Part shown: positions 6,021 through 51,435 of the stretch, one piece after another
Position numbering within the stretch: the stretch's first letter is position 1
How the letters are laid out: every line of letters begins with the position of its first letter
From: Eledone cirrhosa
Lineage: Eukaryota
Direction: 5' to 3'
DNA length: 64,000 bases
NCBI GenBank assembly: GCA_964016885.1
Contig: OZ024742.1
Coordinates: 362,204,001 to 362,268,000, forward strand
Translations under genes and position numbers: made by a program
The notes under the pieces: generated by a model
Databases searched by the model: none
What the model was told of the DNA's origin: nothing
The model's input: only the letters and a program-made list of their open reading frames with translations

Positions 6021-6054
6021 GTGGTTTTTCCCATCTTTTCCACTCCATTTCAAC

Positions 6055-9000
6055 ATGACCTCACTCAGAATAGGCAGCATAAATGCGCGTGGCTTGGGGT
6101 CGTCATGGAAGCAGGGCCACCTGCTCAACGACCTCAGGTCACTAAACATAGATGTAGTGGCCATCAGCGAGACCAGAATCTCCGAAGCACGGGCCTTCGC
6201 ACCGATCTTCGGCGGCTACGATGTGTACGCATCTCCCAGCCGTCCGGGATCGGGGGTGGAGTTGCTGTGCTTTTACGGAGAGGTTTGGATCTCGCCATAC
6301 GGGCCATCTTCCTGGATGCAGAAGGTAAATTCGTGGTGTTGGACGTGACCAGCGGAGACGGGCAAGCTTTCAGGCTAGTGGCCGTCTATGCACCGACAGG
6401 AACAGGGCAGCCTGATTTCTTCCGGCGTCTGGAGACCTTTCGTGGAACGTCCCGCTCTTTAGTGTTAGTGGGCGACTGGAACGGGATCTTAGATGCACGC
6501 TGGGACTGTGTGGGATTAGCGGATAGGGGAGGAGGGTGCAAGAGCCTCACCAACCTGCCCAGTCGTTTTAAACTGTCTGACAGGTACCGATTGGATTTCC
6601 CGAATGTGCCAATGTGGACTTGGACAAATCGTATAGGGTCATCCAGATCATATCTAGATAGAGTATTTTGTAGGGAAATAGATAGGTCTAGCATAGGCTG
6701 TCCACAATTCAAGATAGTCAGCTACACGGACCACAAATTCTTGATCTGTGTGCTTGACTTAGATAGGCTTCATAGACGAGGACCCGGCTACTGGAAGCTA
6801 AACGCGTCCTTACCAGCGCGCAAGGCCTACAGAGACCGGATTAGCGAACTAGTTAAGCGGGCGTTGACGGGGGCCATGGTCAACAACAAGTGGTGGTTTG
6901 CTCTGAAAAGGACGATTAGAATAGAATCCATTAGGTTTAGTAAGGCTTTAGCAATAGAGAAAAATAGAGCAGAGGGAGAACTAGTTAGAAAATTAGACGA
7001 GGCGCTTAACAAAGGCATCGCGACCGACTTACTTGCGGCGAAAGTGGCCCTTGACCAATTCTTCAATGCAAAGCACGAAGGCTGCGTTGTCAGAGCTAGG
7101 GTGCGTTCTCTCAGACACGAGGGGACGAAAGCCGTTCAATGGGCCCGAGTGGCGGAGGCGCGTCGTGGCAACAGTGCCACAGTCCGGTCTTTGGTGGACC
7201 ATGACGGGCGCATGCTACTCGATCCCGGTCAAATGTGTGAAGCTTTTCAGCGACACTTCGCTCAGCTGTTCGGGGGCAGCGGCGGGCCAGAACGAGGGAT
7301 GGACTTTAGTGTCTACCTCGACGGACTGCCGCAGCTCTCAACCACTGAGGCGGAGTGTTGCGAAAAGCCAATAACAGCCGCTGAAGTACGGGAGGCAATG
7401 ACTGGCTACACAAGGGGTAAATCGCCTGGTTTGGATGGTCTGCCATATGAACTTTACGTACAGATGCCAGACTTGTTCGGAGGCCTCTTGGCGGACGTCT
7501 ACTGCAACTGGCAACAGAACGGGAGAATTCCCACCTCTGTGAGCCGAGGAGCTGTGGAGCTGCTGAGAAAGGATCCGAACAAGGGGGATAACATAGATAA
7601 TTTCATCCCCATAACTCTGCTAAACACAGAGTTCAAGATTTTGGCCAAGGTGCTAGCAAAGAGGTTGGCGCTTGTCGTTGGTGGTCTGGTGGGAGAGGCG
7701 CAGACATGCGCCATTCCCGACAGATCCATCCACGACAACCTCCACCTCATGCGATACATCGTAGAGAAGATAGCTAGGGAACCTGGCACGGGTGGGTCAT
7801 TGATCAATTTAGATCAGTCCAAAGCTTTCGATAGGGTCGACCATCGTTACCTAGCGGCAGTCCTGAGTGCGGCTGGCTTTGGGCCCGTCTTCATAGGCTG
7901 GATCGCTGCCATGCACAGCGACATCTGGTCTGTGGTGAGAGTGAACGGTCACCTTTCGGAACCGTTCAACATCATGCGCTCGGTCCGCCAAGGATGTCCC
8001 CTCTCGTCCCTCTTGTACATATTGATTCTCGAGCCATTACTGCACAAACTGGAGACGTTGAGGGGGGTCCCGCGCGAACTAGGATGCGGAAGATCCGTGT
8101 CAGCATATGCGGACGATGTCACTGTAGTGGTGTCGAACGCCAAACACATCGAGGCGATCGGCACTACACTAAGAGAATACGAAGCGGTGACAGGAGCAAT
8201 GATCAACCAGGAAAAGTCAGTGGGCCTGCAGCTCGGCACCTGGAGAGGCAGGTCCATGCCGTCCAACAGCGTCGTCGGGCGCTGGACGGACGGACCGGTT
8301 AAATTGCTAGGGGTCTGTTTCGGTCCGGACCTCCAGACAGACAAAAACTGGGACGAGGTGACGAGCAGGGTGGCTTCTCTCACCCAGAAATGGGCCGAGA
8401 GGAAGCTGGAGCGCTTGCTCTTTCGCTTTTTGTGGAAGGGACGCGCTCCGATGGTCAGGCGGTCCATCTGCTGTCAACACCAGCTACGTGGAGGGCTGGG
8501 CATGCCGTGGCTGATGATGCGCAGACACGCACTCAGGCTACGACATCTCCACCTCTTCCTCGACGGTGATCAGGTGTGGTCGCCGTTTGCTAGACACGTT
8601 TTTCCCTAGCTCGTCTCCTTGACGGAGCTGCAGTCCTGGGTCAAGCGAAGACCGAGAGGGAGCGCTTGGAGACTGGAATGTCTTCAGGCGCTCACAGCCC
8701 TCGACCAATCGGGCAATGTGATCGGTGGAAACTCCACCTTGGCCTTCTATAGAGGATTAGTGGAGGGGAAGAGCGACGATGTACTTGGAGAAACTCTAAA
8801 TGTCGACGAAAATCAAGTAGCCAATCTCTTCGGAAGGACTTTCGGACCGGGGCCTAGGGACAACTTAGTGAAATCCCTGCCCTGGCAGTGCTACTGAGGA
8901 GCTTTGCCAGTTCGGGATAAACTCTACAGGCATAGAGGTGCCGTCAGCCGGGCATGTCCGAAGATGGGCGCAGGGCGACGGAACCGTCCTGAACGCACTC

Positions 9001-9869: not shown

Positions 9870-11851
9870 ATGGCTAATTCACCTCTGCACGAAGCAGCTG
9901 AAAGCCTTCCTCACAAATTAACACCTCACACCGACACCACCATTGTAAATGTTACTACGTTTGCCAACACAAAAAAAAATATAAGCACCAGCAATATTTT
10001 AAATTTGTCTCAGGCAGATATTCATTTCCCGCCATTACCAATGACTGCAGGTGTTAAAGCCTCTACCACCACCACCACCGCGACAACCACCACCACCACC
10101 ACCACCGCGACAAAAGAAACAGAAGAAGAAAAAAATAAATTAACTCGTGATGTCGAAATGAAATCAAGCAAAATGGACTCTTCCCCACCAAAGACGACTG
10201 ACGTCACCACCACCACAACTGAAACTAAAATTAATATTAACGATAGCAACAACAACAACAATGACATTATAACCCCCCCCTCCTCAGTTTCGCCAGAGTA
10301 GCAAAACAGTTCGAAGCATTTACGGTAACTCAGGAGGATTTAGAAAATGCCAAACAAATGGTAAAGAAAGATGGGTACAGGGTCAGCCTCACCCCCCACC
10401 TAATAAAATGGACCATCGGCGCCTATGCACCGTGTCGTATAGAACAATAAATATAAAATCGCGCCGAGTGGAACGGGCATCCGAGTCCCAAATCCCAAAA
10501 TCTTTAGGACATGTGTGGGCAAGAAAAAACCACATCAGACGTGGGCAAAAGTATGGAACCGTGGACGTGTTCTTTGAAACACCAGAGGAGGCTAGAGAAC
10601 ACTCCATGGCCCCATTAAGAAGTGACGACTTCACACTCGTCCCAAGCTATTGTGGCCAGACTCGTAAAGATCAGGGTGACCCACGTTCCACCGGCCATCG
10701 AAATTCCCTGGCTAATAGCGGCCGTCCTCGCTGGCATCGTAGCCAACACGAAAATAATAGCAATAGCAAAAGAAAAGCAGGAGAACTGGTCCGGATCTGG
10801 GATGGAGCTCCTGATCCAAGCGGACCAAAAAAGCATTGAGGAGATCCCAGAGGTAATAGACCTCACTGACGGCAGCCACCTCACGGTAATTGTCGAGGGC
10901 AGAAGACCTAGGTGTGTCGTTTGTGGTGAAGGAACCCACCTAAGGGCTTTCTGCCCTCAGGCTAAAAGGTTGAGGCCACCTCTCCTACCCACCCCAGTGA
11001 CACAACCATCAACACCACCAGTTGCAGAGATGGCAGCAACAACTGTAGCAGCAACAACAGAAGCAACTATAACAGCAACTACCCCAGCAACAGTAGCAAA
11101 ACCAACACCACTACGACCACCAGCAAAACCAACACCACCACCACCCAACGCTTCAGAACTAGCACCAGCGCCTACACCATCCACCACACCACAACCAAAA
11201 CTAACGGCTGTGGACGATTTTCCACTCCCCGGCCTATCACAACTGGAGACAGATTGTGACGACGAGGAGTGGGAAACGATATCCGGAAAAAAAAAGAAAC
11301 CAAAAAAGAAAAAATTCTCTTCCTTCCCCCCTCCAAAAACAAAATACAGAGGGAAACAAATAAATTAAGAAACAAAATTTAGGACAGATATGCCACCATC
11401 CACACCAGCATCACCAACCCCATCAACCCAAGCACCAACACCATCACCATCATTAACCCCAACACCACCATCACCTACACCACAAAAGTCACCAAAATGC
11501 GAAACAGAAACAAACCCACAACAAACGCAAACAAAACAAAACAACCAAAACGATACACACTACACAGCATTAAATTTGAACAACAAGCAATTATTACACT
11601 ACATCCAACACAACACCAGCATCACAGAAAAAGACTACACAACAACCCCAAAATTCACACCACCTCCACACATACAAATCACTCGCATCACACAGAAAAC
11701 GTACATGACACTAAAACAAAAATTCCCCAAAGACATCGGAGACTTCCGACAAGCACTCTCCAGGAGGATTTATAAGGACATCCTTCCTGAGGAGGCCACA
11801 AGCAGGGAAAAGGATGGAAAAACCGTCCTTCCCCTACGAGAAGTAAGGTAA
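9870..11851 (+). pseudogene. Tx1 copy 2 ORF1, frameshifted
   Basis: Fragments 9861-10301, 10408-10839, 10622-11368 and 11390-11851 are homologous to copy 1, with the CCHC knuckle intact. Confidence 0.8.
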
Positions 11852-11885
11852 GTGGTCTTTCCCATCTTTTCCACTCCTTTTCAAC

Positions 11886-14800
11886 ATGACCTCACTCAGA
11901 ATAGGCAGCATAAATGCGCGTGGCTTGGGGTCGTCATGGAAGCAGGGCCACCTGCTCAACGACCTCAGGTCACTAAACATAGATGTAGTGGCCATCAGCG
12001 AGACCAGAATCTCCGAAGCACAGGCTTTCGCACCGATCTTCGGCGGCTACGATGTGTACGCATCTCCCAGCCGTCCGGGATCGGGGGGAGGAGTTGCTGC
12101 GCTTTTTCGGAGAGGTTTGGATCTTGCCATACGGGCCATCTTCCTGGACCCAGAAGGTAAGTTGGTGGTGCTGGACGTGACCAGCACCACCAACGGGCAA
12201 GCTTTCAGGTTAGTGGCCGTCTATGCCTCGACAGGAGCAGGGCGGCCTGATTTCTTCCGGCGTCTGGAGACCTTTCTTGGAACATCCCGCTCTTTAGTGT
12301 TAGTGGGCCACTGGAACTGGATCTTAGATGCACGCTGGTATTGTGTGGGATTAGTGGATAGGGAAGGAGGGTGCAAGAGTCTCACTAACCTGCTCAGACG
12401 TTTTGAACTGTCTGACAGGTACCGAATGGATTTCCCGAATGTACCAATGTGGACTTGGACAAATCGCATAGGGTCATCCAGATCATATCTAGATAGAGTA
12501 TTTTGTAGGGAAATAGATAGGTCTAGCATAGGCTGTCCACAATTCAAGATAGTCAGCTACACGGACCACAAATTCGTGATCTGTGTGCTTGACTTAGATA
12601 GGCTTCATAGGCGAGGACCCGGCTACTGGAAGCTAAACGCGTCCTTACCAGCGCGCAAGGCCTACAGAGACCGGATTAGCGAACTAGTTAAGCGGGCGTT
12701 GACGGGGGCCATCGTCAACAACAAGTGGTGGTTTGCTCTGAAAAGAGCAATTAGAATAGAGTCCATTAGGTTTAGTAAGACTTTAGCAATAGAGAAAAAT
12801 AGAGCAGAGGGAGAATTAGTTAGAAAATTAGATGAGGCGCTTAGCAAAGGCATCGCGACCGACGTACTTGCGGCGAAATTGGCCCTTGACCAATTCTTCA
12901 ATGCAAAGCACGAAGGCTGCGTTGTCAGAGCTAGGGTGCGTGCTCTCAGACACGAGGGGACGAAAGCCGTTCAATGGGCCCGAGTGGCGGAGGCGCGTCG
13001 TGGCAACAAAGCCACGATCCGGTCTTTGGTGGAGCACGACGGGCGCATGCTACTCGATCCCGGGCAAATGTGTGAAGCTTTTCAGCGACACTTCGCCCAA
13101 CTGTTCGGGGGCAGTGGCGGACCGGATCGAGGGATGGACTTTAGTGTCTACCTCGACGAACTGCCGCGGCTTTCGGCCACTGAGGCGGAGTGTTGCGAAA
13201 AGCCGATAACAACCGCTGAAGTACGGGATGCAATGACTAGTTGCACAAGGGGTAAATCGCCTGGTTTGGTTGGTCTGCCCTATGAACTTTACGTACAAAT
13301 GCCAAACTTGTTCGGAGGCCTCTTGGCGGACGTCTACTGCAACTGGCAACAGAACGGGAGAATTCCCAGCTCTGTGAGCCGAGGAGCGGTGGCGCTGCTG
13401 AGAAAGGATCCGAACAAGGGGGATAACATAGATAATTTTAGGCCCATAACTCTGCTAAACACAGAGTTCAAGATTTTGGCCAAGGTGCTAGCAAAGAGGT
13501 TGGCGCTTGTCGTTGGTGGTCTGGTGGGAGAGGCACAGACATGCGCCATTCCCGACAGATCCATCCACGACAACCTCCACCTCATACGATACATCGTAGA
13601 GAGGGTAGCTAGGGAACCTGGTACGGGTGGGTCTTTAATCAATTTAGATCAGTCGAAAGCCTTCGATAGGGTCGACCATCGTTACCTAGCGGCAGTCCTG
13701 AGGGCGGCTGGCTTTGGGCCCGTCTTCAGAGGCTGGATCGCTGCCATGCACAGCGACATCTGCTCTGTAGTGAGAGTGAACGGTCACCTTTCGGAACCGT
13801 TCAACATCATGCGCTCGGTCCGCCAAGGATGTCCCCTCTCGTCCCTATTGTAGGTATTGACTCTCGAGCCCTTACTGCACAAACTGGTACGTTGAGGGGG
13901 GTCCCGCGCGAACTAGGATGCGGAAGATCTGTGTCAGCATATGCGGATGATGTCACCGTAGTGGTGTCGAACGCCAAACACATCGAGGCGATCGGCACTA
14001 CACTAAGAGAATACGAAACGGTGACAGGAGCAATGATCAACCAGGAAAAGTCAGTGGGCCTGCAGCTCGGCACCTGGAGAAGCAGGTCCATGCCGTCCAA
14101 CAGCGTCGTCGGGCGCTGGACGGACGGACCGGTTAAATTGCTAGGGGTCTGGTTCGGTCCAGACCTCCAGACGGACAAAAACTGGGACGAGGTGACGAGC
14201 AGGGTGGCTTCTCTCACCCAGAAATGGGCCGAGAGGAAGCTATCCCTGAAAGGTCGAGCGGAGGTGGCTAACGCGTACATCGCGTCCGTCATCTACTACC
14301 GCCTGACCGTCGTACCTTGTCCTAAGCCCCGCCTGACTGCGCTGGAGCGTTTGCTCTTTCGCTTCTTGTAGAAGGGACGCGCTCCGATGGTCAGGCGGTC
14401 CATCTGCTGTCAACACCCGCTACGTGGAGGGCTGGGCATGCCGTGGCTGATGATGCGCAGACACGCACTCAGGCTACGACATCTCCACCTCTTCCTCGAC
14501 GGTGATCAGGTGTGGTCGCCGTTTGCTAGACACGTTTTTCCCCAGCTCGTCTCCTTGACGGAGCTGCAGTCCTGGGTCAAGCGAAGACCGAGAGGGAGCG
14601 CTTGGAGACTGGAATGTCTTCAGGCGCTCACAGCCCTCGGCCAATCGGGCAATGTGAACGGTGGAAACTCCACCTTGGCGTTCTATAGGGGATTAGTGGA
14701 GGTGAAGAGCGACGACGTACTTGGAGAAACTCTAGGCGTCGACGAAAATCAACTAGCCAATCTCTTCGGAAGGACTTTCGGGCCGGGGCCTATGGACAAC

Positions 14801-15307
14801 TTCCAGAAATCCCTGGCCTGGCAGTGCTACCGGGGTGCTTTGCCAGTTCGGGATAAACTTTACAGGCATGGAGGTGCCGTCAGCCGGGCATGTCCGAGAT
14901 GCGCACAGGGCGACGAAACCGTCCTGCACGCACTCGTCCAGTGTCCGAGCATTGCTGACTTGTGGGTTTATGTCGAACACCTGCTGTCACGTGTAGGACG
15001 GATCCAGCTATCAGCTGAGTCCATCGTGAGGATTGCCCCGCCCTCTTCCTTTAGCTGGGAAGGGCAGGCAGTTTTTATCTGTCTGGTGGCCATGGCGAAA
15101 GAGATAGTATGGTGGACACGTTTGAAAGGGCTGAAGACGAGCACTTACCTCTTCGGTGATGCCCTGATTAACTTTTTCAAATTTCATCTGAAAAGGAAAA
15201 TCAGGGTAGAGATGGAAGTGCTCTCTTCCCAGCATTTTGTTGAATGATGGGTGAGAGAAGCAAGTATGGCCCGAATGAATGGGCCTTCTCTGAGTATGTG
15301 TCTGTAA
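11886..15307 (+). pseudogene. Tx1 copy 2 ORF2 (APE-RT-zinc finger), disrupted
   Basis: 655-aa APE+RT ORF, then YADD in 13829-14371 and CPRCAQGDETVLHALVQC in 14387-15247. Frameshift near 13850, stops at 14371 and 15247. Confidence 0.9.
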
Positions 15308-16481: not shown

Positions 16482-16487
<6 letters not shown>

Positions 16488-16870
16488 AAATAAAATTAAA
16501 GTCAAATGATTAAAATTTAGCTTCGTTTATTACTGCTATATATATTTCAGTGACAGCCATCTTTGGCTGTGACCTCTTCAGGCAGTTTGAATTAGTATGG
16601 TATAGACAAGTACATACGTTGTTGAGGTGTATAATATTGTCAATACTCTGATATACCATACTAATTTAAACTGCCTGAAGAGGTCACTGCCAAAGATGGC
16701 TGTCACTGAAATATATATAGCAGTAATAAACGAAGTTAAATTTTAATCATTTGACTTTATTTAACTTTATTTTACACTACTCCAGAGTAACCAAACCAAC
16801 CTGCGCACTTCGTCGAGTGCTCCAGCTGCATACTGAGGTGTTAGTATACAACCAACATAAACTCAAAATC
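16482..16870. mobile_element. HHR family H1 fold-back element (Penelope pLTR-like)
   Basis: Inverted arms about 16499-16604 and 16652-16758. HHR at 16670-16724(+): ACTGC CTGAAGA ggtcac-gcc/ggc-gtcact GAAA TATATA TA GCAGT, mirrored at 16532-16586(-). Flanked by (TA)n. Confidence 0.75.
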
Positions 16871-16888
16871 TCTCTCTCTATATATATA

Positions 16889-17255
16889 TTAGTAAAAAGG
16901 AAAAGAAAATGCTGACAAATTTTTCCCAGTGAAAAATAGTTTAATTAGGAAAAAGTATAAATTAGTAATAAGTATTAGTTAGTATTCAGTTTTAGTTTTA
17001 AGTTTTTACCGGTTGCGCATTTCTTAGAGTGCTCTTGATTTTTGCTCTAATCTGATTAGAGGAAAATCACGAGCACTCTATCTCAAAATTATTTTTGAAA
17101 AGCATAAGAAATGCGCAACCGGTAAAAACTTAAATCTAAAACTGAATACTAACTAATACTTATTACTAATTTATACTTATTCCTAATTAAACTATTTTTC
17201 ACATGGACAAATTTGTCAGCATTTTCTTTTTCTTTTTACTAATATATCACAACCT
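16889..17255. mobile_element. HHR-variant family H2 fold-back element
   Basis: Inverted arms about 16889-17025 and 17106-17243. 17092-17128(+): TTT TTGAAAA GCAT aagaa ATGC GCAA CCGG TA AAA. Confidence 0.65.
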
Positions 17256-17735
17256 CTTAGTACGGCTGATACTTAAATATAAGCACCGTATACCTTCCTG
17301 TCAGTTGATTGAACGTTTGAAAGTATATACTTTCCTTATGTATATTAACGGCTGAGCAGCCTAATTTGCATCGTTTTCGGTATGCCCGGCCGACTATCTC
17401 ACTCGATATGCAAATTAGGCTGCTCAGCCGTTAATATGTATAAGGAAAGTATATACTTTCAAACGTTCAATCAACTGACAGGAAGGTATACAGTGCTGAT
17501 GACAGCTAATAAGCTAGAAACTAGTTCATCGTTCCTTTGTCAGTGTTGAACAAGTTGGCAACGATTGTTGCCGAATACTGTACGGCTAATAATTCGGGCT
17601 GTTTGTTTACAAACAAACCGAGCATTATAATAAATATTCGGTAAACCCATATGTACATATATATATATGTGTACATGTATGTATATACATAGTACTGTAC
17701 GTCTGTATACATATATATATGTACGTGTACATACT
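17256..17735 (+). mobile_element. HHR family H3 (retrozyme-like) copy with inverted 5' segment
   Basis: 17491-17531: CAGTG CTGATGA C AGCT aata AGCT A GAAA CTAG TT CATCG. 17285-17371 is the reverse complement of about 17408-17496. Confidence 0.75.
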
Positions 17736-20700
17736 TATATATAAATGCAAGTTTACGATTCTGTGTGTCCGCCGAAAACTAGCAAACTACCGTACCAAAC
17801 TCCTCAAAATTACATGTACATATTCACTATACACTCGGACACGTAACGGTCGAAACAGTTTTACTTTGCAAATTAAGGAATTCATTTAAATTCAATTTAT
17901 CTTATTTTCTGATGAATATCAAAAGAGATCATCCATTTTGTTTTTTTTTATGTTCTCCAGTCTGTAGATAAGAGAGAGAGTAAGGGATGAGAGAGAAAGA
18001 GAGAAAGTGTGGGAGATGGGAGTGAGAGTAAGGGGATGAGAGATAAAGAGAGTGAGTGGATGGGAGAGACGGAGTAAGGGGTTGTGAGAGAGAATGAGAG
18101 TAAGGGATGAGAGAGACAGAGAGAGAGAGTGGGAGAGAAAGAGAGTAAGGGGATGTGAGTGAGAAAGAAAGAGAGTAAGGGGACGAGAGAGAAAGTCGAT
18201 GAAAGAGAGAGAGGGAAAGCTTCCAGCGTTGTTAACTTTTATTTATTTATTATTTTTACACACTTCTTAACTCTCCCAATGTTATTTATCTTTTATTTAT
18301 TTTTGTTCGTTATTCTGTAGAGGATGAGAGAGAGAGAAAGAAAGAGAGGAGATGAGAAAGAGAAAGGGAGTGAGGCGGATGGGGGAGAGAAAGACAATAA
18401 GAAAAGAGAAAAAATGGGAGAGAGAAAAAAGTAAAGAGGCAAGAGAGAGGGAGGGTGATTAGAGGGATTCTTTAACTAACGTGTGTCCGCGTTTATATAT
18501 ATATTTACACACACATATGTGTGTTATTGGGGGGGGGGGGCGTTCATTAGCAGACGATATATGTTACCATCAAAGCTTATTTTCTACATATGTCTAAAGA
18601 AATCACAGATGCTTTTATAGAAGTTGTATATATGTATTTAACTGACAAAAAAAAAACGGTATTTTAAAAGATATTATTTGAATATATTATTTTTTCCGCT
18701 GTTATTTGAATTAACACAGAAAATATTTTTTTTTGTAGTGTTTGTCGTCTTTTTTTTGGGGGGGGGGGGGGGGGGGGGGGTTTATAAAAAATGATAATTT
18801 CAGAATACAATCTGAAATCCCAATATTTTCTACATATGTCTAACATTAATTACACCTAATATACATTCATATAAAGAGATCATTTAAAACAACTTTACTG
18901 AGTGAACAATACATTCTATAGTTGTTTCTATTTTGGAAAGAGTGTAGTGTGTAATAATTGTTTCTACTTTTGGCACAAGGCCAGCAATTATTCCAGTGCA
19001 TTACTGGTATTTTATTTTATCGTGTAGTGTGTAATAATATCACTTCAAATGCCTAGAAAACGTTCCAGATGATTATATGGAAGGTCATCTTCAGAGGCTA
19101 AGAGAAAGAAAGCGATCTGAAGAAAGTGAAGAAGTTCGGCATATCCGTCTAGCTGCTAACTGAGCCCTAACAGCTTTAGCACGAGCACACCGTTTGGATG
19201 AAAGGGAACAAAGGACTGAAATTAAGGAACAGCAGCAAATCAGGCGAAATGCTAATCAAGCACATCGTTCTCCTGCCCGAGCAGGAGAACAAGCCACAAG
19301 TAAAATGAACGGGCTGATAGCTGCTTTTTCTTATGACACCCAAAAGGACTACAGCAGTAATCCACAAATCAACATTGGGAAAATGAACAAATGCTGCCAA
19401 TATTGTGGTGCCAAGAAGTGGGTAGCAGAAACACCAAGTCTATGCTGCTCAAAAGGCAAAGTGAGCCTTAAAACAATACAAGAACCTCCTGAATTTCTGA
19501 AGAATCTGCTCCTTCAGCATACACCAGAAGCACGACACTTCAATAAATACAACATAAAATATAATTCTGCCTTTCAAATGACATCTTTTGGGGCTGATAG
19601 GAATGTGACTGACTTTAGATTCTGTACAACTTATAAAATTCAGGGACAGTGTTACCACTTAATGGGTGGCCTTCTGCCACTTTCACAGGAGCCTCACAAA
19701 TTTGTGCAGGTTTACTTCATGGGTGGAAATGAAACACAGGCACAACAAAGATGTACCAATGTCCATGGTGGATTGCAGTTCTACATCGTCATAAAGTTAC
19801 AGGAAATGCTTCACCAACATCACATGTACGTCAGTGTATTTAAATATGCACTGGAGCATATGAACACTACCAGAGATCCAAAAATCCTCATTAGGGCGGA
19901 CAAACGCCCAGCTTCAGAACATGAACGCAGATTCAATGCACCTGTCACTGATGAAGTTGCAATCATAATGGTTGATGAACAGCATGAACGACGTGAGATT
20001 GCTTTGCAAAAATGAAGTGGACATTTGGAGCGAATTTGTGAAACTCATAGAGCCTATGATTCACTCCAATATCCGCTCATCTTTTGGAATGGTCAAGATG
20101 GATATCATTTTCAGCTACGGTAGAGGAGAAGATAAGACCAGATGATGTTGATAAGATCATTTCAGCAGAGTTGCCTGATAAAGGTGGTGATCCAGAGCTC
20201 TTTGAAACCATCAAGTCCAAACTCATTCATGGTCCATGTGGAGTCATCAATCCAGCCTCTCCATGCATGACAGATAAAAAATGCAGCAAACATCATCCTA
20301 GAGCTTTTATTCGGCAAACTCGGACTGACAATAATAGATACCCCCTTTATCGTAGGCCTAGACCAGAACATGGAGGCAATACTGCAAGCCTAACAGTTCG
20401 AGGAGAGGAGCTGACAATAAACAATCAGTGGGTCGTCCTACACAACAAATTGTTGTGTAAACTTTTAAAAGCTCATATCAATGTTGAGTATTGCAGCTCC
20501 GTCAAGCAATCCTATATGTCACAAAATATATCAACAAGGGCAGAGACATGGCTACCTTTATTACTGACAAAGAACTCAATAATGGTGGGCTGGATGAGGT
20601 GAAACGGTATCAAACAGGTCGATATATCTCCAGCAAAGAAGCTATCTGGCGAATCTTAGGATTTGATATCCACCAACGCCACCCAACAGTGGTCAACCTC

Positions 20701-22464
20701 GCAGTCCATCTGGAAAATGGACAGAGAGTGTACTTCACTGAGATCACTGCTCGTCAGTTGGCACAAGCATCACATGACACCACACTAGCTGCTTTCTTTA
20801 AACTCTGCCAGAATGATGAATTTGCTCGATCTCTCCTATTTGCTGAAGTCCCAACATACTACACCTGGAGCAATTGCAAGACCTGGAATCGAAGAAAGCA
20901 GGGTCATTTAGTGGAAGGTCAGGAAGTCTAGTCAAGTGATGCTATTGGGCGTGTTTACAATGTCCATCCCAACAACAGAGAATGTTTTTATTTACGGCTA
21001 CTTCTGCATACTGTTCGAGGACCAACGTCATTTGAGGATCTTAGGTGCTTCAGAGGAAGGGAGTGCGCAACATACCAAGAAGCATGCAAAGAGCATGGAC
21101 TCCTGCATGACAATGGACACTGGAAGAAGTGCCTAGAAGAAGCAGCAATCACTCAAGTAGCCAGTCAAATAAGACAATTATTTGGTATTATGGTCACAGC
21201 ATGTGGAAATGATGAAGCTCATCTACTCTGGCAGGAGTACAAAAACAATATGTCGGACAACTATCTACACCTAGCCCGAAGACAACATGGCAATATATAT
21301 ATGGAATATACCCCCAGGATTTACAATCAAGCTCTCTGTGACCTGTCCCATCGAGTTCAGGCAATGAATAGCACATTAGCTAACTGCGGGATGCCAGAGC
21401 CAGATGAAGAAATGGAGGTAGCACAAGACATTTTTCAGGAGACAAACTACGATATTCAAGCATTGCGTAAGTTTGTGGATTAAAATGAACCTCGATTGAT
21501 GAATGACCAGAAATACGCCTACCACATCATCGAAAACATTCAAAATGACAGGGGAGGACTTTTCTTCATCGATGCTCCTGCTGGCACAGGCAAGACATTC
21601 CTCATAAACCTCCTGCTTGCAAAAGTTCGGCAAAAGCAACACATTGCCCTTGCTGTGGCTTCAAGTGGCATTGCAACAACACTTCTGGATGGAGGAAGAA
21701 CTGCACACTCCATGTTTAAGCTGCCCATAGATCTCGCACGGCAGGAACAATCTTTTTAGCACCTAAAAATGTTGCTGTGAAAGAAATCAACAGAAGGCTG
21801 CTGGAGATGTTACCGGGAGAGAAAATATGCTATAAATCAGTTGACACAATCACTTCTCAAGACCATGTTGTAAACTATCCAACTGAATTTTTGAACAGTC
21901 TTGAACAAGCGGGAATTCCTCCACACAACCTGATACGAAGCTTGGAGCATCGGTTATGCTACTTCGCCATCTGGATCCTTGAAAACTATGTAATGGCACA
22001 AGACTCATCATCAAAACTATGATGTTCAATGTTTCAGAAGTTGCAATCATGCCAAGAAAATTTGCTGATGACAATTGTTTCATTCCCAGAAAACCTCTGA
22101 AGTCAACTGATTTGCCATTTGAATTTCAAAGACTTCAATTTCCGATCAGGCTCAGTTTTGCCATGACCATTAATAAATCTCAAGGGCAATCATTGAAAGT
22201 CTTTTCACATGGTCAACTCTATGTTGGCACAACAAAGGTTGGCAACCCTGATTGTCTCTTCATTGTGGCACCACAGGGCAAAACCAAGAATGTTGTTTAT
22301 CCAGAGGCTTTGGAATGAGCAATGTCGTAATTCCTCATTCAATGACAATACACACAGATCCTAATTCCTTAGTCATGTAGTTTGCAAGGAATTCTGAAGC
22401 CGCAAATTTACTGCATGGTGTTACTTTGGAAGAATATGCAGGCATTCCCGGGTACCTCTGCTAT
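17736..22464 (+). mobile_element. Helitron, internally deleted, with degenerate Rep-helicase
   Basis: 19049-22318 fragments: CQYCGAKKW..CCSKGKV, YNSAFQMTSFG, ISAELPD, HINVEYC, KYINKG, DAPAGTGKTFL (Walker A), QFPIRLSFAMTINKSQGQSL, FSHGQLYV, TKNVVYPEAL. Helitron-like 5' end near 17736 and a degenerate 3' hairpin/CTAT near 22441-22464 (ends less certain). Confidence 0.85.
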
Positions 22465-22759
22465 ATAAAGTAGTATAAGTGAGGACTTTGTTGGGTAGAA
22501 ATAGCAGCCAAATTTCCTTCAAATCCCACCATACTTTCTCAGGTATGTATGAAGCAAAAAGGTATGGTTCTATGTGATAACTCGATCTACTAGAAATATT
22601 AGCAAAATACATTTCAAATTACAAACAACTGTCTAACACACATACATGTGTGTGTATGTATCTATGTTTGTCATGTGAGCCACTATAACTGTTGGTAAGC
22701 TAATAGAAATAGAAAACAAATCACCCTCAAACAAGACCCTACTGCCATACCAGGCATTT

Positions 22760-22917
22760 ATTATAATGCTCGGTGTGTTTGTAAACAAACATCCCGAATT
22801 AGGCCGTACAGTGTCTAGCAACCATCGTTGCTCATTTGTTCAACACTAACAAAGGAACGCTGTACTAGTTTCAAGCTAATTAGCTATCGTCAGCAACGTA
22901 TACCTTCCTGCCAGATG
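22760..22917 (-). mobile_element. HHR family H3 fragment
   Basis: 22858-22898(-): CGTTG CTGACGA T AGCT aatt AGCT T GAAA CTAG TA CAGCG. Confidence 0.75.
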
Positions 22918-23020: not shown

Positions 23021-23195
23021 TAGGTAAAAGATTATCCAAGATGAAGTGATGGTTAATTACTACACTGGATATGGTTGACGTACGGTAAGAGGTTACTCTA
23101 CGAGTTATGGAAGAATAGGCTGCAGTACCACCGTGGAAACACTTGTAAGCACACGGATTAAACTACCTTTTTATGATGTCTACCTGTTATTATTC

Positions 23196-23224
<29 letters not shown>

Positions 23225-23230
<6 letters not shown>

Positions 23231-23642
23231 CTACTGTACGTCTGTATACATATATGTGTGTACGTATACATACTTATATTTAAGTAACAGCCGTACTAAG
23301 AGTGAGAAATGAAATTTCGTTTCATTTTTTCCGTTTATCGTTTTCGGTAACCCGGCCGATTAATTCACTCGATATGCAAATTAGGCTGCTCATCCGTTAA
23401 TATGCTTAAGAAAATTATTTATTTCAGACATTCAACCATCTGGCAGGAAGGTATACGTTGCTGACGATAGCTAATAAGCTTGAAACTAGTACAGCGTTCC
23501 TTTGTCAGTGTTGAACAAATGAGCAACGATGGTTGCTAGACACTGTACGGTTTAATTCGGGATGTTTGTTTACAAACACACCGAGCATTATAATAAATGT
23601 TCGGTGAATCCATACGTACATATATATATGTGTGCATGTATG

Positions 23643-23694
<52 letters not shown>

Positions 23695-24168
23695 CTACTG
23701 TACGTCTGTATACATATATGTGTGTACGTATACATATTTATATTTAAGTAACAGGCGTACTAAGTGTGAGAAATGAAATTTCGTTTCATTTTTTCTGTTT
23801 ATCGTTTTCGATACCCGGCCGATTAACTCACTCGATATGCAAATTAGGCTGCCCAGCCGTTAATATGCTTAAGAAAAGTATATACTTTCAGACGTTCAAC
23901 CATCTGGCAGGAAGGTATATGTTGCTGACGATAGCTGATAAGCTTGAAACTATTACAGCGTTCCTTTGTCAGTGTTGAACAAATGACCAACGATGGTTGC
24001 TAGACACTGTACGATTTAATTCGGGATGTTTGTTTACAAACACACCGAGCATTATAATAAATGTTCGGTGAATCCATACATACATATATATATGTGTGCA
24101 TGTATGTATATATATATATATACATACTACTGTACGTCTGTATACATATATCTGTGTACGTATACATA

Positions 24169-24208
<40 letters not shown>

Positions 24209-27735: not shown

Positions 27736-28340
27736 TTTTGAGTATATGTTGGTTATATACCAACATCTCAGTATGCAGGCTGGAGCACTCGACGAAGTGC
27801 GCAGGGTGGTTTGGTTACTCCGGAGTAATGTAAAATAAAGTTAAATAAAAAGTCAAATGTTTAAAATTTAGCTTCGTTTATTACTGCTATATATATTTCG
27901 GTGACAACTATCTTTGGCTGTGACCTCTTCAGGCAGTCCGAATTAGTGTGGTATAGACAAGTACATATGTTGTTGAGGTGTATAATTTTGTCAATACTCT
28001 GATATGTCCAGTTCCTGGTTGGGTTGTTATTTCACTGAGGAACGGGAATCATATGAATTCAAACAAACGAATTTCAGTGTCAAAGGGCCTCTTCTCCTCT
28101 CATTGGTCAGTTGTTAGAACATTCCTCATTCTAAGTGTTGTTATTGTTGGAGTTAGCTTAAAAAATTGATAAAGTGGTAGAAGGAACAATGTGGTAAAGG
28201 AACAAAATAACAAAAAAAAGTGTCAAACTTCCCATTGCTCAGTTTTGAGAGCATTCCTCAGTCAGAAGTCTATAGAATTCTTTCTGGGGTGAGGCTACCT
28301 GTAGTGTTTGACAAACACCACTCACAATCAATTATCTTGG
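27736..28340 (-). mobile_element. HHR family H1 copy (longer)
   Basis: Matches 16482-16870 and 51121-51435. HHR at 27883-27937(-). The extent beyond about 28055 is uncertain. Confidence 0.7.
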
Positions 28341-28894: not shown

Positions 28895-28938
28895 ACCGTC
28901 TATGCATTTCTGGCTTGACTGGCCTTCGTCAGCACGGT
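28895..28938 (-). ncRNA. Type I hammerhead ribozyme motif (family H4)
   Basis: ACCGTg CTGACGA A GGC cagtcaa GCC A GAAA TGCA TA gACGGT, inside a GC-richer island (28790-29072) between (TA)n and (GA)n. Confidence 0.65.
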
Positions 28939-29070
28939 CCCTCCCACCGCTTGCAGCTGCTGGACTTGAAAACAGTCGAGAATATATAGTTTCCTCGTCT
29001 GTGTAAATGAGGTGATTAATCTCATTTGCATATGAAGGTGCATAAGTTGGCTCAATAGATTAATCACCTC

Positions 29071-32216: not shown

Positions 32217-33275
<1,059 letters not shown>

Positions 33276-33349
33276 ACATACATATATATATATACATACA
33301 TACATACATATATATATATATATAAATATATATATATATATGTATGTAT

Positions 33350-37655: not shown

Positions 37656-37716
37656 TTTCATTCTGATGAATGAAAGTAAATATCGTTTGCTTTCAAGAAA
37701 CTACTGGTAAATGAAA
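37656..37716 (+). ncRNA. Type I hammerhead ribozyme with canonical core (family H6)
   Basis: TTTCATT CTGATGA a TGAAAGTAAA tatcg TTTGCTTTCA a GAAA CTACTGG TA AATGAAA: 7-bp stem I, 10-bp stem II, GUA site at 37707-37709. Confidence 0.75.
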
Positions 37717-38740: not shown

Positions 38741-41205
38741 CGTGGGAAAGTGAAAAATCGGAGAATAGACCGTTAAAACATGTTTATTTAAAATATCACC
38801 TACGTACGTTTCGCCCAGTTGGGCTTCTCAAGGGCATAAATAATCACAAGTGTTCCTTATATAGTTCGGAAAGAGTTTTGGGGGTTAAATCCACATCAAG
38901 ATTCATTGCTCGCAAAAATATCTTGTTTTGATTTTGCAGCAGGTCAAGGGAGGTAACTCTGGCCGGTGTTAGGGCAGTCTTTCCCGGATAATTTTTTTTT
39001 TTTTTTTTTTCCGTTTGTCTGAGGCTGGGTCTGGTATGCAAGGATTGTTTTCTGGGTGTTATTTTGCTGCGCCTACCCGCCGGTGTGTTAAGACTTGTTG
39101 CAGGGAGATCCAGTGTACTATTTCACTCTTCATTCTTAACCCATCTAAAGAAGGATATTTTTAAGCGATGTGTACAACTTATCGCTGTTTCAGCTCTGCT
39201 GTTGATGAGCTCGTGGGGTGCAGTTATGATGTGGTAGAGCTCCATGAGGCAAAAATCACATTTCCTCTTGAAGTTGTACGGTGCAGCCCTGCCGACAATC
39301 TCCCAGTGCGTGGAGAAGCTAATGTTTAAGTCCTTTAGTGATGTGATGTAGTCCGCGAGCGAGGTGGAGTGCCTTAGTTTTCTATTTGTGAAAGAGTAGA
39401 GATGTGTTCGAAACCTAATTTTGAACGGGCCGGAGGTGGCCCCTATATAATGTTTAACGCTATTGTGGCTAGTAATAGTGCATCTATATATAACCCTATC
39501 GGCCAAGCAGTATCCTCTAAGGGGGCATCGTCCTCTGTCGCGGCAGTTGCAATTTCTGTCGCGGTTCCGTCTATTTCCCACGATAAGGCTATCATTATTG
39601 CTGCCTACGTTGCTAGCTGCGCTACCGCAGCTGTCGTTAGCACTATTACAACCCACAGCACGCGGGATGGTGCGATTGTTATTCCGCACGCCATGTTCTG
39701 CATGTTCCCCAGTCGTCTTCGCGGTCATTCTGGTTGCGTCTGCGGATGCCGTTGCCAACACTATTGGATGCTGTCAGGGAGTTGTTAAGGCCGATACAGT
39801 TATTGTCAGGTGTAGGTGCGTCTGCGTCGAGGTGCTGTGTCTTGGTGATCTTACTGTGGTTCGTTGTTCCTATGATGTCTGCTAGGTTAGGAGTAGTAGA
39901 GAAGGATATTTTTATATTGTTCTTATTAAGAATTTTTCTATACCTATGGTTGGGTGGGAAGTTCTTCTCTAAGGCTTCGAAGAATATCCGGGGTATGTTG
40001 GAGGCCACACTTCGAGAGTAGGGGGGGGGGGTGGAACCATAGGACGTTACGGTGGCGATTACGTGTCCTTGTACTTTTGCTACGGGTGGTTCCATCTAAG
40101 TGATCGCTCTTATGTGTGTTAATGCGCTGTCGCCCGTTCGGTGCCCCTTTCACTTTATGCTCGGGTTCACTCTTTCTACCACTTCCATGTTTATGTACAC
40201 GAAGATGTTGGTTGGAAGGCGTTGGTAGTAGGCCGTCGCCTTTGTTGGTTTTGTAATAGGGGAATAGTTTGAGTAATCTACAGTATTCACCGTCGCCGGG
40301 GACGTGATCTTTGGTGCGGTTATCTATTCTATTATATCCGACTTTAACGAGGTCGCCGCGTGATCGGTTATAGGTATTGCTTACTATAACGTTAGTTTTA
40401 TGAGGGGGGTGGTTTCTAGAGCTAGCGTTAGGGATGTAGAAAATTCCTCGGTTAAAGCCGGCGCTTATCAAGGCCCTATTGTAGTAATCAGCCGCTTGGT
40501 TGAAGATATCCTCATTGGCGGATAGCCTCGAGATTCTATGTGAGATACTATAGACTATGGAGTTGAGAGTCTGCTTAGGGTGGTTGGAGGCATAATTAAT
40601 ATAAGAGAGGCACTCCCCAGGCTTATGGTATGGCTTGTATAAGCCCGTACTCAACTCCAGGGTCACGTCCAGGAAGTTGACAACCCTGTGGTTGAGGTCC
40701 ATAGTTACGGATAGGCCGTATGACTTAAAGAACCTGTGTATATGTTTGTTAAGGTTCTCTATCCTACGGGGGCTATGGTTCCTAACGGTAAACAGGGCGT
40801 CGTCCCTATATACACCTCCTTGTAGGGCCGGTATTTCTTCCCTAAGCTTATGTAGGAGGTATATCCCAACCAGGTCAGTTGCTTGCGCTGAGTCGCTGGA
40901 CCCCATCGTGACATCGAAGTTATCAGGACGGTTGGTTCTGGTCCAGTGGGAGCCTTCGAACTGGATAATGGTTCTACGTGCCGCTAGAATTATGTCTATT
41001 TCTTTTTTGGTGAGGCTAGTGTTAGATCTAGCTAAGATAAGTGCCTTATTTAAGAGTATGGGGGAGATAGAGGCGTAGTAGCTATCTATATCAAGCTGGA
41101 TGAATTTCAGGGTGGCTTTATCCGGCAACTCAGTGAACCAATTTATGACCTGGTCGGTGTTGCCCCAGAGGCAGACCTTAGCCTTTCTATTAAGCTCGAG
41201 TAGTA
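38741..41205 (-). mobile_element. Penelope-like element, Naiad-type, 5'-truncated, with 3' hammerhead
   Basis: RT-GIY-YIG coding region 41205-39123, 3' UTR ending in (TA)n. HHR 38797-38836(-): CC TTGAGAA GCCCA ac TGGGC GAAA CGTACG TA GG. Confidence 0.85.
39123..41205 (-). pseudogene. PLE reverse transcriptase + C-terminal GIY-YIG endonuclease (two frameshifts)
   Basis: LDIDSYYASI, FDVTMGSSDS, GVYRDD, VNFLDVTL, YINYASNHP, NVLWFHPP, CNCR..CPL.G.CL...VIY...YIG, CDFCLME, CTH. The frameshifts lie at or near a G-run (40020-40031) and a C-run (39707-39710). Confidence 0.9.
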
Positions 41206-41210
41206 TATAT

Positions 41211-41830
41211 AATATTATAATGAAATGACAGGAGGCTGGATTTGTGTAAATCCTTGAAAGGTTTATTATACTATGATCATTTCAATGACCGGGTTCCGTA
41301 TGAATCCGGTGATATCATCAGGTATTCGAAATATAATACGTGAATGTAATAGATAAAATCCATGGGGCTGAAAATCGTGTCATGAGATCGACGTTAACTT
41401 ATGCTCCCATCCCTTTCTGTTTTCGTTTATCTGACCGGTAGTAGCATACTATAAACTTTAGCCACGTCACTCCAGGGCGACCGGCTGAGGTTGAAGGAAC
41501 AGAATAGCGGTCGCCCTCGAGTCCTCGATTTTCAGCCCCATGGATTTTATCTATTACACTCACGTATTATATTTCGAATACCTGATGATATCACCGGATT
41601 CATACGGAACCCGATCATTGAAATGATCATAGTATAATAAACCTTTCAAGGATTTACACAAATCCAGCCTCCTGTCATTTCATTATAATATTTAACTCCG
41701 TAATAGCACCACCAACTACAAAAACAAAGACGGTTGAACTGCTTTACGTTAAGTACTCTCTATATTATTGCATTACGATTGACCATACGGAATAGACCAG
41801 CTCTATACAGTGGTGCACCTCAAACCTGAA
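41211..41830. mobile_element. Fold-back element with about 167-bp inverted arms and a degenerate HHR-like motif
   Basis: Arms 41211-41377 and 41526-41692. CTGATGA...GGAA CCCG(G/A) TC near 41582-41617. Confidence 0.6.
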
Positions 41831-51122: not shown

Positions 51123-51435
51123 AGTATATGTTGGTTGTATACCAACACCTCAGTATGCAGAATGGAGCACTCGACGAAGTGCGCAGGTTGGTTTGGTTAC
51201 TCCGGAGTAATGTAAAATAAAATAAAATAAAAGTCAAATGTTTAAAATTTGGCTTCGTTTATTACTGCTATATATATTTCGGTGACAGCCATCTTTGGCT
51301 GTAACCTCTTCAGGCAGTCCGAATTAGTGTGGTAGAGACGAGTACACATGTTGTTGAGGTGTTTAACTTTGTCAATACTCTGATATGCCCAGTTCCAGGT
51401 TGGGTTGTTGTTTCACTGAGGAACTGGAATCATAC
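51121..51435 (-). mobile_element. HHR family H1 copy
   Basis: HHR 51264-51318(-): ACTGC CTGAAGA GGTtACAGCC aaagat GGCTGTcACC GAAA TATATA TA GCAGT. Confidence 0.75.

What the first reader, a model, noticed from the sequence alone, without database searches (positions are those of the whole stretch)
23225..24150. H3 tandem units: retrozyme-like repeat predicted to release a 464-nt monomer or circRNA
Seen: direct repeats each with (C/T)GTTG CTGACGA T AGCT-loop-AGCT T GAAA CTA(G/T) TA CAGCG. Predicted cuts after 23491 and 23955. No ORF. Six HHR copies of this family in 64 kb. Known: non-LTR retrozymes in several animals are tandem repeats of a few hundred nt with one type I HHR per unit and produce circular RNAs. 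Inference: a retrozyme family of this genome, with an internal variable (TA)n that sets monomer length.
Basis: partly seen in the sequence, partly recalled or inferred. Interest (0 to 1): 0.8.

Follow-up and report, generated by a model that had tools for sequence, protein, structure and literature searches.

The report
Penelope-copied self-cleaving repeat with U6-like promoter
This is one of more than 24,000 copies of a short non-coding repeat that carries a predicted self-cutting RNA motif; its insertion scars match those of Penelope retrotransposons, which likely copy it, and each unit holds a near-copy of the host's U6 gene promoter elements that may drive its transcription.

Summary
Observation confirmed: two 464-nt units (94% alike), each with a type I hammerhead core; cuts predicted after 23491 and 23955; six family hammerheads in the window; 24,446 exact cores genome-wide (control 0). 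It is a non-LTR retrozyme family, a known kind.

Two additions. (1) Insertions show the Penelope (PLE) signature: two fixed 3' ends about 59 nt apart running into (TA)n, 5' truncation and head-to-head inversions. The extra 'tail' sits on exactly one arm in 32 of 32 classifiable inversions; a coding PLE of this genome gives 30 of 32. 5' ends do not pile up at the cut site, so the template was circular or uncut RNA. (2) Each unit carries TATGCAAATTAG plus a TATA box, like this genome's U6, U6atac and MRP promoters but not U2. The spacing is 4-5 nt shorter.

This locus is a poor test case: unit 1's TATA box is mutated and unit 2's helix III has G16.2 to U. No RNA data were available, so cleavage, circles and promoter activity are untested. 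The partner PLE was not identified.

The parts
23226..23689 (+).
23690..24181 (+). Repeat unit 2 plus the run-out to the tail-less 3' end, which merges into (TA)n at about 24181
23430..23516 (+). Type I hammerhead 1. Long interrupted helix I; core 23461-23491; U.U at the base of helix II; helix III is one A-U pair capped by palindromic CUAG; predicted cut after 23491
23894..23980 (+). Type I hammerhead 2; predicted cut after 23955; G16.2 to U at 23953 breaks the helix III palindrome
23492..23955 (+). Predicted cut-to-cut monomer, 464 nt; 68% paired as a circle, with helix I joining its two ends
   Evidence: prediction only
23280..23338 (+). About 59-nt 'tail' segment between the family's two fixed 3' ends (internal copy here; also 23744-23802); contains a hairpin and a T6 run
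23373..23424 (+). U6-like promoter module of unit 1: TATGCAAATTAG at 23373-23384; TATA box mutated
23836..23888 (+). U6-like promoter module of unit 2: TATGCAAATTAG at 23836-23847, TATA at 23879; projected start near 23909, about 47 nt before the cut
23640..23695 (+). Variable TA segment (56 nt here, 20 nt in the 429-nt monomer at 32629-33057)
22755..22917 (-). Inverted 5' piece with a hammerhead (22869-22893), 98% identical to unit 1; its 3' end is atypical (no tail, no TA junction)
23021..23192 (.). 172-bp unrelated repeat between two (TA)n runs, separating the inverted piece from unit 1
   Evidence: also hits L213
24207..24497 (-). 5'-truncated copy of an older subfamily (71-79% identity, no hammerhead) with its tail end in the same (TA)n tract; likely a separate insertion
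32331..33306 (+). Second family locus: inverted tail-only arm (32331-32444, minus) plus two units with both palindromes and both TATA boxes intact; better test construct
17254..17746 (+). Third family locus: diverged single unit (about 84%) with a short inverted 5' piece

Best explanation
This is a two-unit, partly decayed copy of a dispersed non-coding hammerhead repeat (a non-LTR retrozyme) that is likely copied into (TA)n tracts by the reverse transcriptase and endonuclease of a Penelope-like element and is possibly transcribed from its own U6-like promoter. Shown: copy number, hammerhead structure kept under covariation, two fixed 3' ends, one-sided tail, inversions, and the promoter-like module. 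Inferred step 1: the module starts RNA about 47 nt before the cut, and transcription reads into the next unit. Inferred step 2: two hammerheads pair through the ACUAGU palindrome and cut; the monomer is held end to end by helix I and ligated into a circle by a host ligase, as shown for other animal retrozymes. Inferred step 3: a PLE protein nicks (TA)n and starts cDNA at one of two internal sites 59 nt apart on circular or uncut RNA, reading through the cut site. Priming from both target strands would give head-to-head arms with the tail on one arm. Because the unit is copied as a ring or tandem, the upstream promoter is regenerated in each new copy. Odds: PLE mobilisation 0.9; family hammerhead active as a dimer 0.75; promoter functional 0.6; circle rather than uncut multimer as main template 0.5; this locus efficiently yielding the 464-nt RNA 0.25.
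For: 24,446 exact cores, reversed control 0. Helix pairs are kept in 98.1% of cells versus 31-40% when slid, and helix I pair 3 is U.G 86, G.U 40, A-U 7. 138 of 159 copies keep both core and palindrome. Of 45 head-to-head pairs, 32 were classifiable and all 32 have the tail on exactly one arm; 57 of 61 tails run into (TA)n. Independent contigs show a loose end at 23338 going into (TA)n. Positive control: the coding family PLE-H1 gives 30 of 32. The tail and inversion are described as PLE features, the tail as unique to PLEs and set by two internal RT start sites (PMC8557442 passages; PMC11167929). At most 2 of 131 5' ends lie at the cut. Long arrays differ by 0-6 substitutions within and 4-62 between, except L140 and three older two-monomer arrays. 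The two units here share 3 rare variants. The promoter-like element is at -77 to -79 in 5 of 5 host U6/U6atac/MRP promoter types and in 0 of 3 U2 promoters. It precedes the hammerhead in three non-coding families (147 of 188, 4 of 6, 4 of 4 copies) and in 0 of 53 hammerheads of four coding PLE families. Genome-wide, octamer plus core gives 41,067 matches against 514 for the control.
Against: No RNA evidence of any kind was obtained. No coding PLE sharing this unit's sequence was found among 50 GIY-YIG loci and 55 PLE-H1 loci. Element-to-TATA spacing is 43-44 nt versus 47-49 in host genes. A T6 run at 23789 would normally stop Pol III before the second hammerhead. Only one pair changes on both sides within the family, and related sequences inflate that test. 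Among best-hit copies, within-array divergence (0.036) is close to between-array divergence (0.042). Eight of nine Xenopus retrozyme dimers did not cleave in vitro (preprint), and hammerhead cleavage was not needed for PAc insertion. Three further U6atac hits lack the element; they look like retrocopies, which was not checked.
Confidence: 0.72

Rival explanations
1. The family is PLE-mobilised, but from uncut linear read-through transcripts. The hammerhead and circles are by-products or dispensable, and arrays grow partly by local duplication.
For: In PAc, hammerhead mutants insert normally and unprocessed RNA is the main substrate. 84 of 112 hammerhead arms carry a single hammerhead. L140 alternates two monomers 14-16 substitutions apart, which fits a dimer template or a local duplication.
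Against: Core and palindrome are kept across subfamilies about 12% apart and in a more distant family. In L134 both inverted arms hold near-identical units, 2 and 7 hammerheads. Similar repeats give circles in coral, mussel and axolotl (PMC7229834).
Confidence: 0.3
2. The unit is simply the detached pseudo-LTR of a still-existing autonomous PLE, with no independent life.
For: Xenopus retrozymes match PLE pLTRs (preprint). Neptune-like PLEs here have hammerheads with a similar U.U helix II and palindromic tetraloop, and tails of about 63 nt.
Against: None of 74 family loci shows the unit forming both ends of an ORF. Neighbouring PLE fragments belong to several families and are mostly separated by (TA)n. 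The U6-like element was not found upstream of any of 53 coding-PLE hammerheads.
Confidence: 0.12
3. The octamer and TATA match is not a working promoter, and the repeat is transcribed only by read-through from flanking DNA.
For: The spacing is half a helical turn shorter than in host genes, and T runs lie downstream. A 2020 review says retrozymes seem to lack promoters (PMC7761336 passage). The families may have inherited the motif from one ancestor.
Against: The 12-mer is identical to that of a host U6 gene. It sits at a fixed 43-44 nt from a TATA box in three families whose intervening sequence has diverged, and is intact in 69 of 73 arms.
Confidence: 0.35
4. A satellite or LINE-dependent SINE-like repeat with a chance hammerhead.
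For: APE-RT LINEs occur in the window, and Rfam gives no hammerhead hit.
Against: The one-sided tail, two internal fixed ends, covarying helix I and dispersal over many chromosomes all argue against it.
Confidence: 0.03

Closest known systems
Metazoan non-LTR retrozymes (PMC7229834: coral, mussel, axolotl Rtz_331/Rtz_353)
   Same: Non-coding AT-rich unit with one type I hammerhead; monomers to multimers; thousands of copies; co-occurs with PLEs. Palindromic weak helix III as in HHR_Amex1; U.U at the base of helix II as in HHR_Amex2.
   Different: Longer unit (412-584 nt versus about 170-400) with an internal TA tract. PLE tail and 5' inversions shown here were not described in the parts read. 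U6-like promoter module. circRNA not shown here.
Endonuclease-bearing Penelope-like elements (Neptune, Hydra, Poseidon; PMC8557442, PMC11167929)
   Same: 5' truncation, partial tandems, inverted 5' copy, one-sided tail, microsatellite targeting, minimal-helix-III type I hammerhead.
   Different: No ORF. Tail about 59 nt versus the 30-40 nt cited. Long helix I and a U6-like module not found in the coding PLE ends examined here.
Xenopus retrozymes as non-autonomous PLEs (bioRxiv 10.64898/2026.07.22.740005)
   Same: Same conclusion of PLE dependence.
   Different: That work rests on co-occurrence and pLTR homology in vertebrates. Here the evidence is insertion anatomy, and no pLTR homolog was found.
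Newt satellite 2 and schistosome satellite hammerhead repeats
   Same: Hammerhead repeats reported to have internal promoters: snRNA-type, Pol II, in the newt; Pol III in the schistosome. Seen only as cited in PMC2220036.
   Different: Here the module resembles the host's U6/U6atac/MRP class rather than U2. The original papers were not held, so element-by-element comparison was not possible.
Non-autonomous Chlamys elements such as MRC1 (PMC8557442 passage)
   Same: Non-coding PLE derivatives with multicopy head-to-tail insertions.
   Different: Those generally share 3' sequence with an autonomous family, and most Chlamys elements lack hammerheads.

Membership tests
Non-LTR retrozyme | Short non-coding unit in tandem or dispersed copies | tested here: met
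Non-LTR retrozyme | One type I hammerhead per unit with intact core | tested here: met
   (141 of 159 cores intact); Rfam models do not score it
Non-LTR retrozyme | No LTR, PBS or PPT | tested here: inconclusive
   No LTR-internal-LTR layout in 74 loci; PBS and PPT were not searched for
Non-LTR retrozyme | Self-cleavage of the transcript | not testable with these tools
   Prediction only; hammerhead 2 at this locus is impaired
Non-LTR retrozyme | Accumulates as monomeric circular RNA | not testable with these tools
   No RNA holder listed
PLE-mobilised element | Tail at only one end, from two internal RT start sites | tested here: met
   32 of 32 classifiable inverted pairs, of 45 in all; control PLE 30 of 32
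PLE-mobilised element | 5' truncation with inverted 5' copy | tested here: met
   45 head-to-head versus 3 tail-to-tail pairs in 74 loci
PLE-mobilised element | AT-rich or microsatellite target | tested here: met
   57 of 61 tails run into (TA)n
PLE-mobilised element | Terminal sequence shared with an autonomous family | tested here: inconclusive
   Not found in the PLE loci sampled; best tail match 5 of 1000 shuffles among 32 comparisons
Autonomous PLE | RT plus GIY-YIG ORF | tested here: not met
U6-type (type 3) promoter | Host upstream element plus TATA box | tested here: met
U6-type (type 3) promoter | Host spacing between element and TATA (47-49 nt) | tested here: not met
   43-44 nt in the repeats
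U6-type (type 3) promoter | Drives Pol III initiation about 30 nt after TATA | not testable with these tools
   No RNA data

The most novel reading that the evidence does not exclude
A group of retrozyme families has captured the host's U6-type snRNA promoter and uses hammerhead cutting plus circle or tandem copying by a Penelope RT to carry that upstream promoter with it. The result is a self-transcribing, PLE-mobilised circular RNA element with tens of thousands of promoter copies in the genome. Its one-sided tails give direct genomic evidence of which enzyme mobilises animal retrozymes and where on the circle reverse transcription starts.
Probability: 0.4. Interest if true: 0.8.

Novelty: new variant of a known kind. 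Interest (0 to 1): 0.62.

Why it matters
Which enzyme mobilises animal retrozymes, and what transcribes them, are stated as open in the papers read. PLEs are called 'a strong candidate' (PMC7229834), and retrozymes 'seem' to lack promoters (PMC7761336). This family gives a countable genomic signature of PLE action, two mapped candidate RT start sites, and a candidate promoter with a predicted start 47 nt before the cut. All three can be tested directly. It also suggests why the ribozyme and tandem form are kept: they would let an upstream promoter be copied along with the element.

Tried and rejected
Rfam: no hammerhead hit; the sub-threshold miRNA hits come from the TA repeats.

PLE-H1 as the specific partner: 3 of the first 15 copies had a family copy at the 5' side, but 0 of 40 more did, and 2 had one at the 3' side. 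Rejected as shared (TA)n targeting.

Partner by tail similarity: the best of 32 comparisons reached 5 of 1000 shuffles and was not repeated with the older subfamily. On closer reading that Neptune segment lies just before that family's tail, not in it.

PF26215 is not in the library. The GIY-YIG search gave about 10,600 candidates; 50 loci were examined and none had this unit as its pLTR.

Expression: no RNA holder listed, which is not evidence either way. Runs X5 and X6 (organisms B and C) hold only 8-9 low-depth contigs each and were not used.

Within- versus between-array divergence on best-hit loci was uninformative. The whole-monomer folding z of -9.0 is inflated by TA runs; the largely non-TA stretch 23744-24074 gives z = -3.7. 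Target-site duplications cannot be read inside (TA)n.

Earlier scan notes: none. Coats 1994, Ferbeyre 1998 and Lunse 2017 were not held.

Full report
1. Observation. The two units are real: period 464, 94% matches, confirmed by alignment. Each has CTGACGA, then T-AGCT-loop-AGCT-T, then GAAA, a 4-nt loop, TA and CAGCG; the cuts fall after 23491 and 23955. Six family cores lie in the window. There is no meaningful ORF. Rfam scores nothing as a hammerhead.

2. The ribozyme. Helix I is long and interrupted, from 23430 to 23516. On 20 distinct copies, 98.1% of cells pair, against 31-40% when partners are slid. Only one pair changes on both sides; over 141 intact-core copies it reads U.G 86, G.U 40, A-U 7. 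The same two positions vary in independent contigs. Helix III is one A-U pair capped by CUAG, a palindrome suited to a double hammerhead, as described for the axolotl and newt motifs (PMC7229834). 138 of 159 copies keep both core and palindrome. At this locus the second hammerhead reads ACUAUU, and the helix III duplex weakens from -4.8 to -1.3 kcal/mol.

3. The family. The genome is 3.0 Gb. An exact 33-letter core pattern matches 24,446 times, control 0. A 200-kb sample taken at round coordinates held 2 loci. Monomers are 412-584 nt, and the TA segment explains the length (r = 0.98, 39 monomers, not all independent). There are at least two subfamilies about 12% apart and more distant families. 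Of 133 arms in 74 loci, 21 carry no hammerhead, 84 carry one and 28 carry two to seven. These loci were the best DNA hits, the first pattern matches on contig C1 and copies met beside PLEs. They are not a random set, but were not chosen for their ends.

4. Insertion anatomy. Arms end at one of two places, equivalent to about 23279 and 23338, and 57 of 61 of the longer ends run into (TA)n. Contigs of runs X1 and X4 show the same loose end at 23338. There are 45 head-to-head pairs and 3 tail-to-tail pairs. In 13 of the 45 one end could not be classed (locus edge or atypical end). In the other 32 the tail is on exactly one arm, 17 one way and 15 the other, never both or neither; two of these are a local duplicate in L132. 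As a positive control, a young coding PLE family of this genome (PLE-H1, 713-aa RT plus GIY-YIG ORF) has its 90-nt tail on one arm in 30 of 32 inverted loci (55 loci examined, 20 not inverted, 3 without a readable 3' end). Craig et al. list the one-sided tail and inverted 5' copy as PLE features (PMC8557442 passages). Frangieh et al. show in vitro that the tail is the stretch between two internal RT start sites, call it unique to PLEs, and find hammerhead cleavage unnecessary for insertion (PMC11167929 parts 1-2 of 4). I infer that a PLE enzyme inserts this family.

5. Template. A linear cut monomer would leave 5' ends at the cut site; at most 2 of 131 mapped 5' ends fit that. About 50 ends could only be placed in the TA-rich segment. 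Many single copies exceed one unit in length. The template was therefore a circle or an uncut multimer. Long arrays are homogeneous, with 0-6 substitutions within versus 4-62 between. L140 alternates two monomers 14-16 substitutions apart, and L013, L016, L030 and L142 differ by 10-24 within. These data do not separate circle from multimer or local duplication. The two units here share 3 rare variants and have 3 and 10 private ones, so they come from one template and have since decayed.

6. Promoter-like module. ATGCAAAT lies 80-100 nt before the core in 147 of 188 copies of this family, 4 of 6 and 4 of 4 copies of two other non-coding families, and 0 of 53 hammerheads of four coding PLE families (counts include overlapping loci; one further unassigned family had it in 2 of 6). 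Genome-wide, octamer plus core gives 41,067 matches against 514 for the control, and the 12-mer plus TATA gives 23,328 against 760. These counts mostly reflect copy number. The host's own genes give the test. Three U6 promoter types, the best U6atac hit and RNase MRP all have TATG(C/G)(A/T)AAT(T/G)AG at -77 to -79 and TATA at -30, while 0 of 3 U2 promoters have it. One atypical U6 copy (L234) has it further upstream, and three weaker U6atac hits lack it. The repeat's 12-mer is identical to that of U6 gene L225. Against a simple Pol III reading, the spacing to TATA is 43-44 nt instead of 47-49, and a T6 run precedes the tail end. Projecting from TATA puts the start about 47 nt before the cut. 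The octamer is intact in 69 of 73 arms; unit 1 here has a mutated TATA box.

7. Partner. It was not identified. Coding PLEs are abundant. The early association with PLE-H1 did not replicate. Two Neptune-like families have tails of about 63 nt, and one has a similar helix II, but sequence support is not significant. The clade names Neptune and Hydra are my reading from recalled motifs, not from a tree.

8. Comparison and novelty. The element meets the testable features of a non-LTR retrozyme and of a PLE-mobilised element; cleavage and circles are untested. That animal retrozymes depend on PLEs was proposed in PMC7229834 (parts 2-4 of 6 read) and argued from co-occurrence and pLTR homology in bioRxiv 10.64898/2026.07.22.740005 (parts 1-3 of 5 read; its supplements are closed and may hold related detail). 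Internal promoters are reported for the newt and schistosome repeats (seen only as cited in PMC2220036) and for a plant retrozyme LTR (search listing), whereas a review states that retrozymes seem to lack promoters (PMC7761336 passage). I found no paper reporting PLE tails or a U6-type module in retrozymes in searches (0 papers), 76, 84 and 95. The library lacks most subscription journals, so this is weak evidence of novelty.

9. Verdict. New variant of a known kind. Interest 0.62, carried by the PLE insertion signature and the candidate promoter.

Noticed in passing
window 39123-41692 (-): Frameshifted coding PLE (RT and GIY-YIG recognised by motif; no Pfam hit) with a 167-nt inverted pLTR carrying its own hammerhead (41280-41321 minus, 41582-41623 plus).
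   Followed up: partly
window 42994 (-) and 43073 (+); L065, L071, L100: Hammerheads of three Neptune-like PLE families have U3 and A8 in place of the usual C3-G8 core pair (TTGAAAA or TTGATAA ... GAAA CCGG), conserved over many copies.
   Followed up: partly
window 28907-29032 (-); L039, L008: A separate non-coding hammerhead family (TGCA loop) with the same U6-like module 44 nt before TATA and two 3' ends about 49 nt apart.
   Followed up: partly
G000:C1:5738350-5751968; L186, L188: A related family (helix II GTTGT/ACAAC, CTAG loop, 466-486-nt unit) with the same module forms a 30-unit array.
   Followed up: partly
L169 (G000:C3:235110300-235117300, minus): Young abundant PLE family with many intact 713-aa ORFs, a 90-nt one-sided tail and no hammerhead found in its pLTR.
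   Followed up: yes
window 16545-16711, 27896-27932, 51277-51313: Another hammerhead family (TATATA palindrome), including a head-to-head inverted pair at 16483-16773.
   Followed up: no
window 37663-37700; L170, L184, L200: Hammerhead family with a full helix III (CCACTGG or CTACTGG) and a 3' end 36 nt after the cut.
   Followed up: no
G000:C1:952067 and many others: An abundant repeat beginning ATGCAAATCAGGATG, followed about 106 nt later by CTGANGA, appears among the octamer matches; whether it is a hammerhead was not checked.
   Followed up: no
L012 2188-3118; L146 6447-7377: 310-nt tandem repeat with a hammerhead (CGCG loop) and no octamer upstream, next to family copies in two loci.
   Followed up: no
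window 19164-21483 (+): Broken ORFs that look Helitron-like from recalled motifs; no Pfam hit.
   Followed up: no
window 6021-8609, 11847-15247 (+), 57755-59601 (-): APE-RT LINE fragments.
   Followed up: no
G000:C19:31780605-31840331; G000:C3:307349256-307453739: Tandem clusters of U6 and U2 genes; the U2 promoters have a TATA-like box near -32 to -35 but lack the U6 upstream element.
   Followed up: partly
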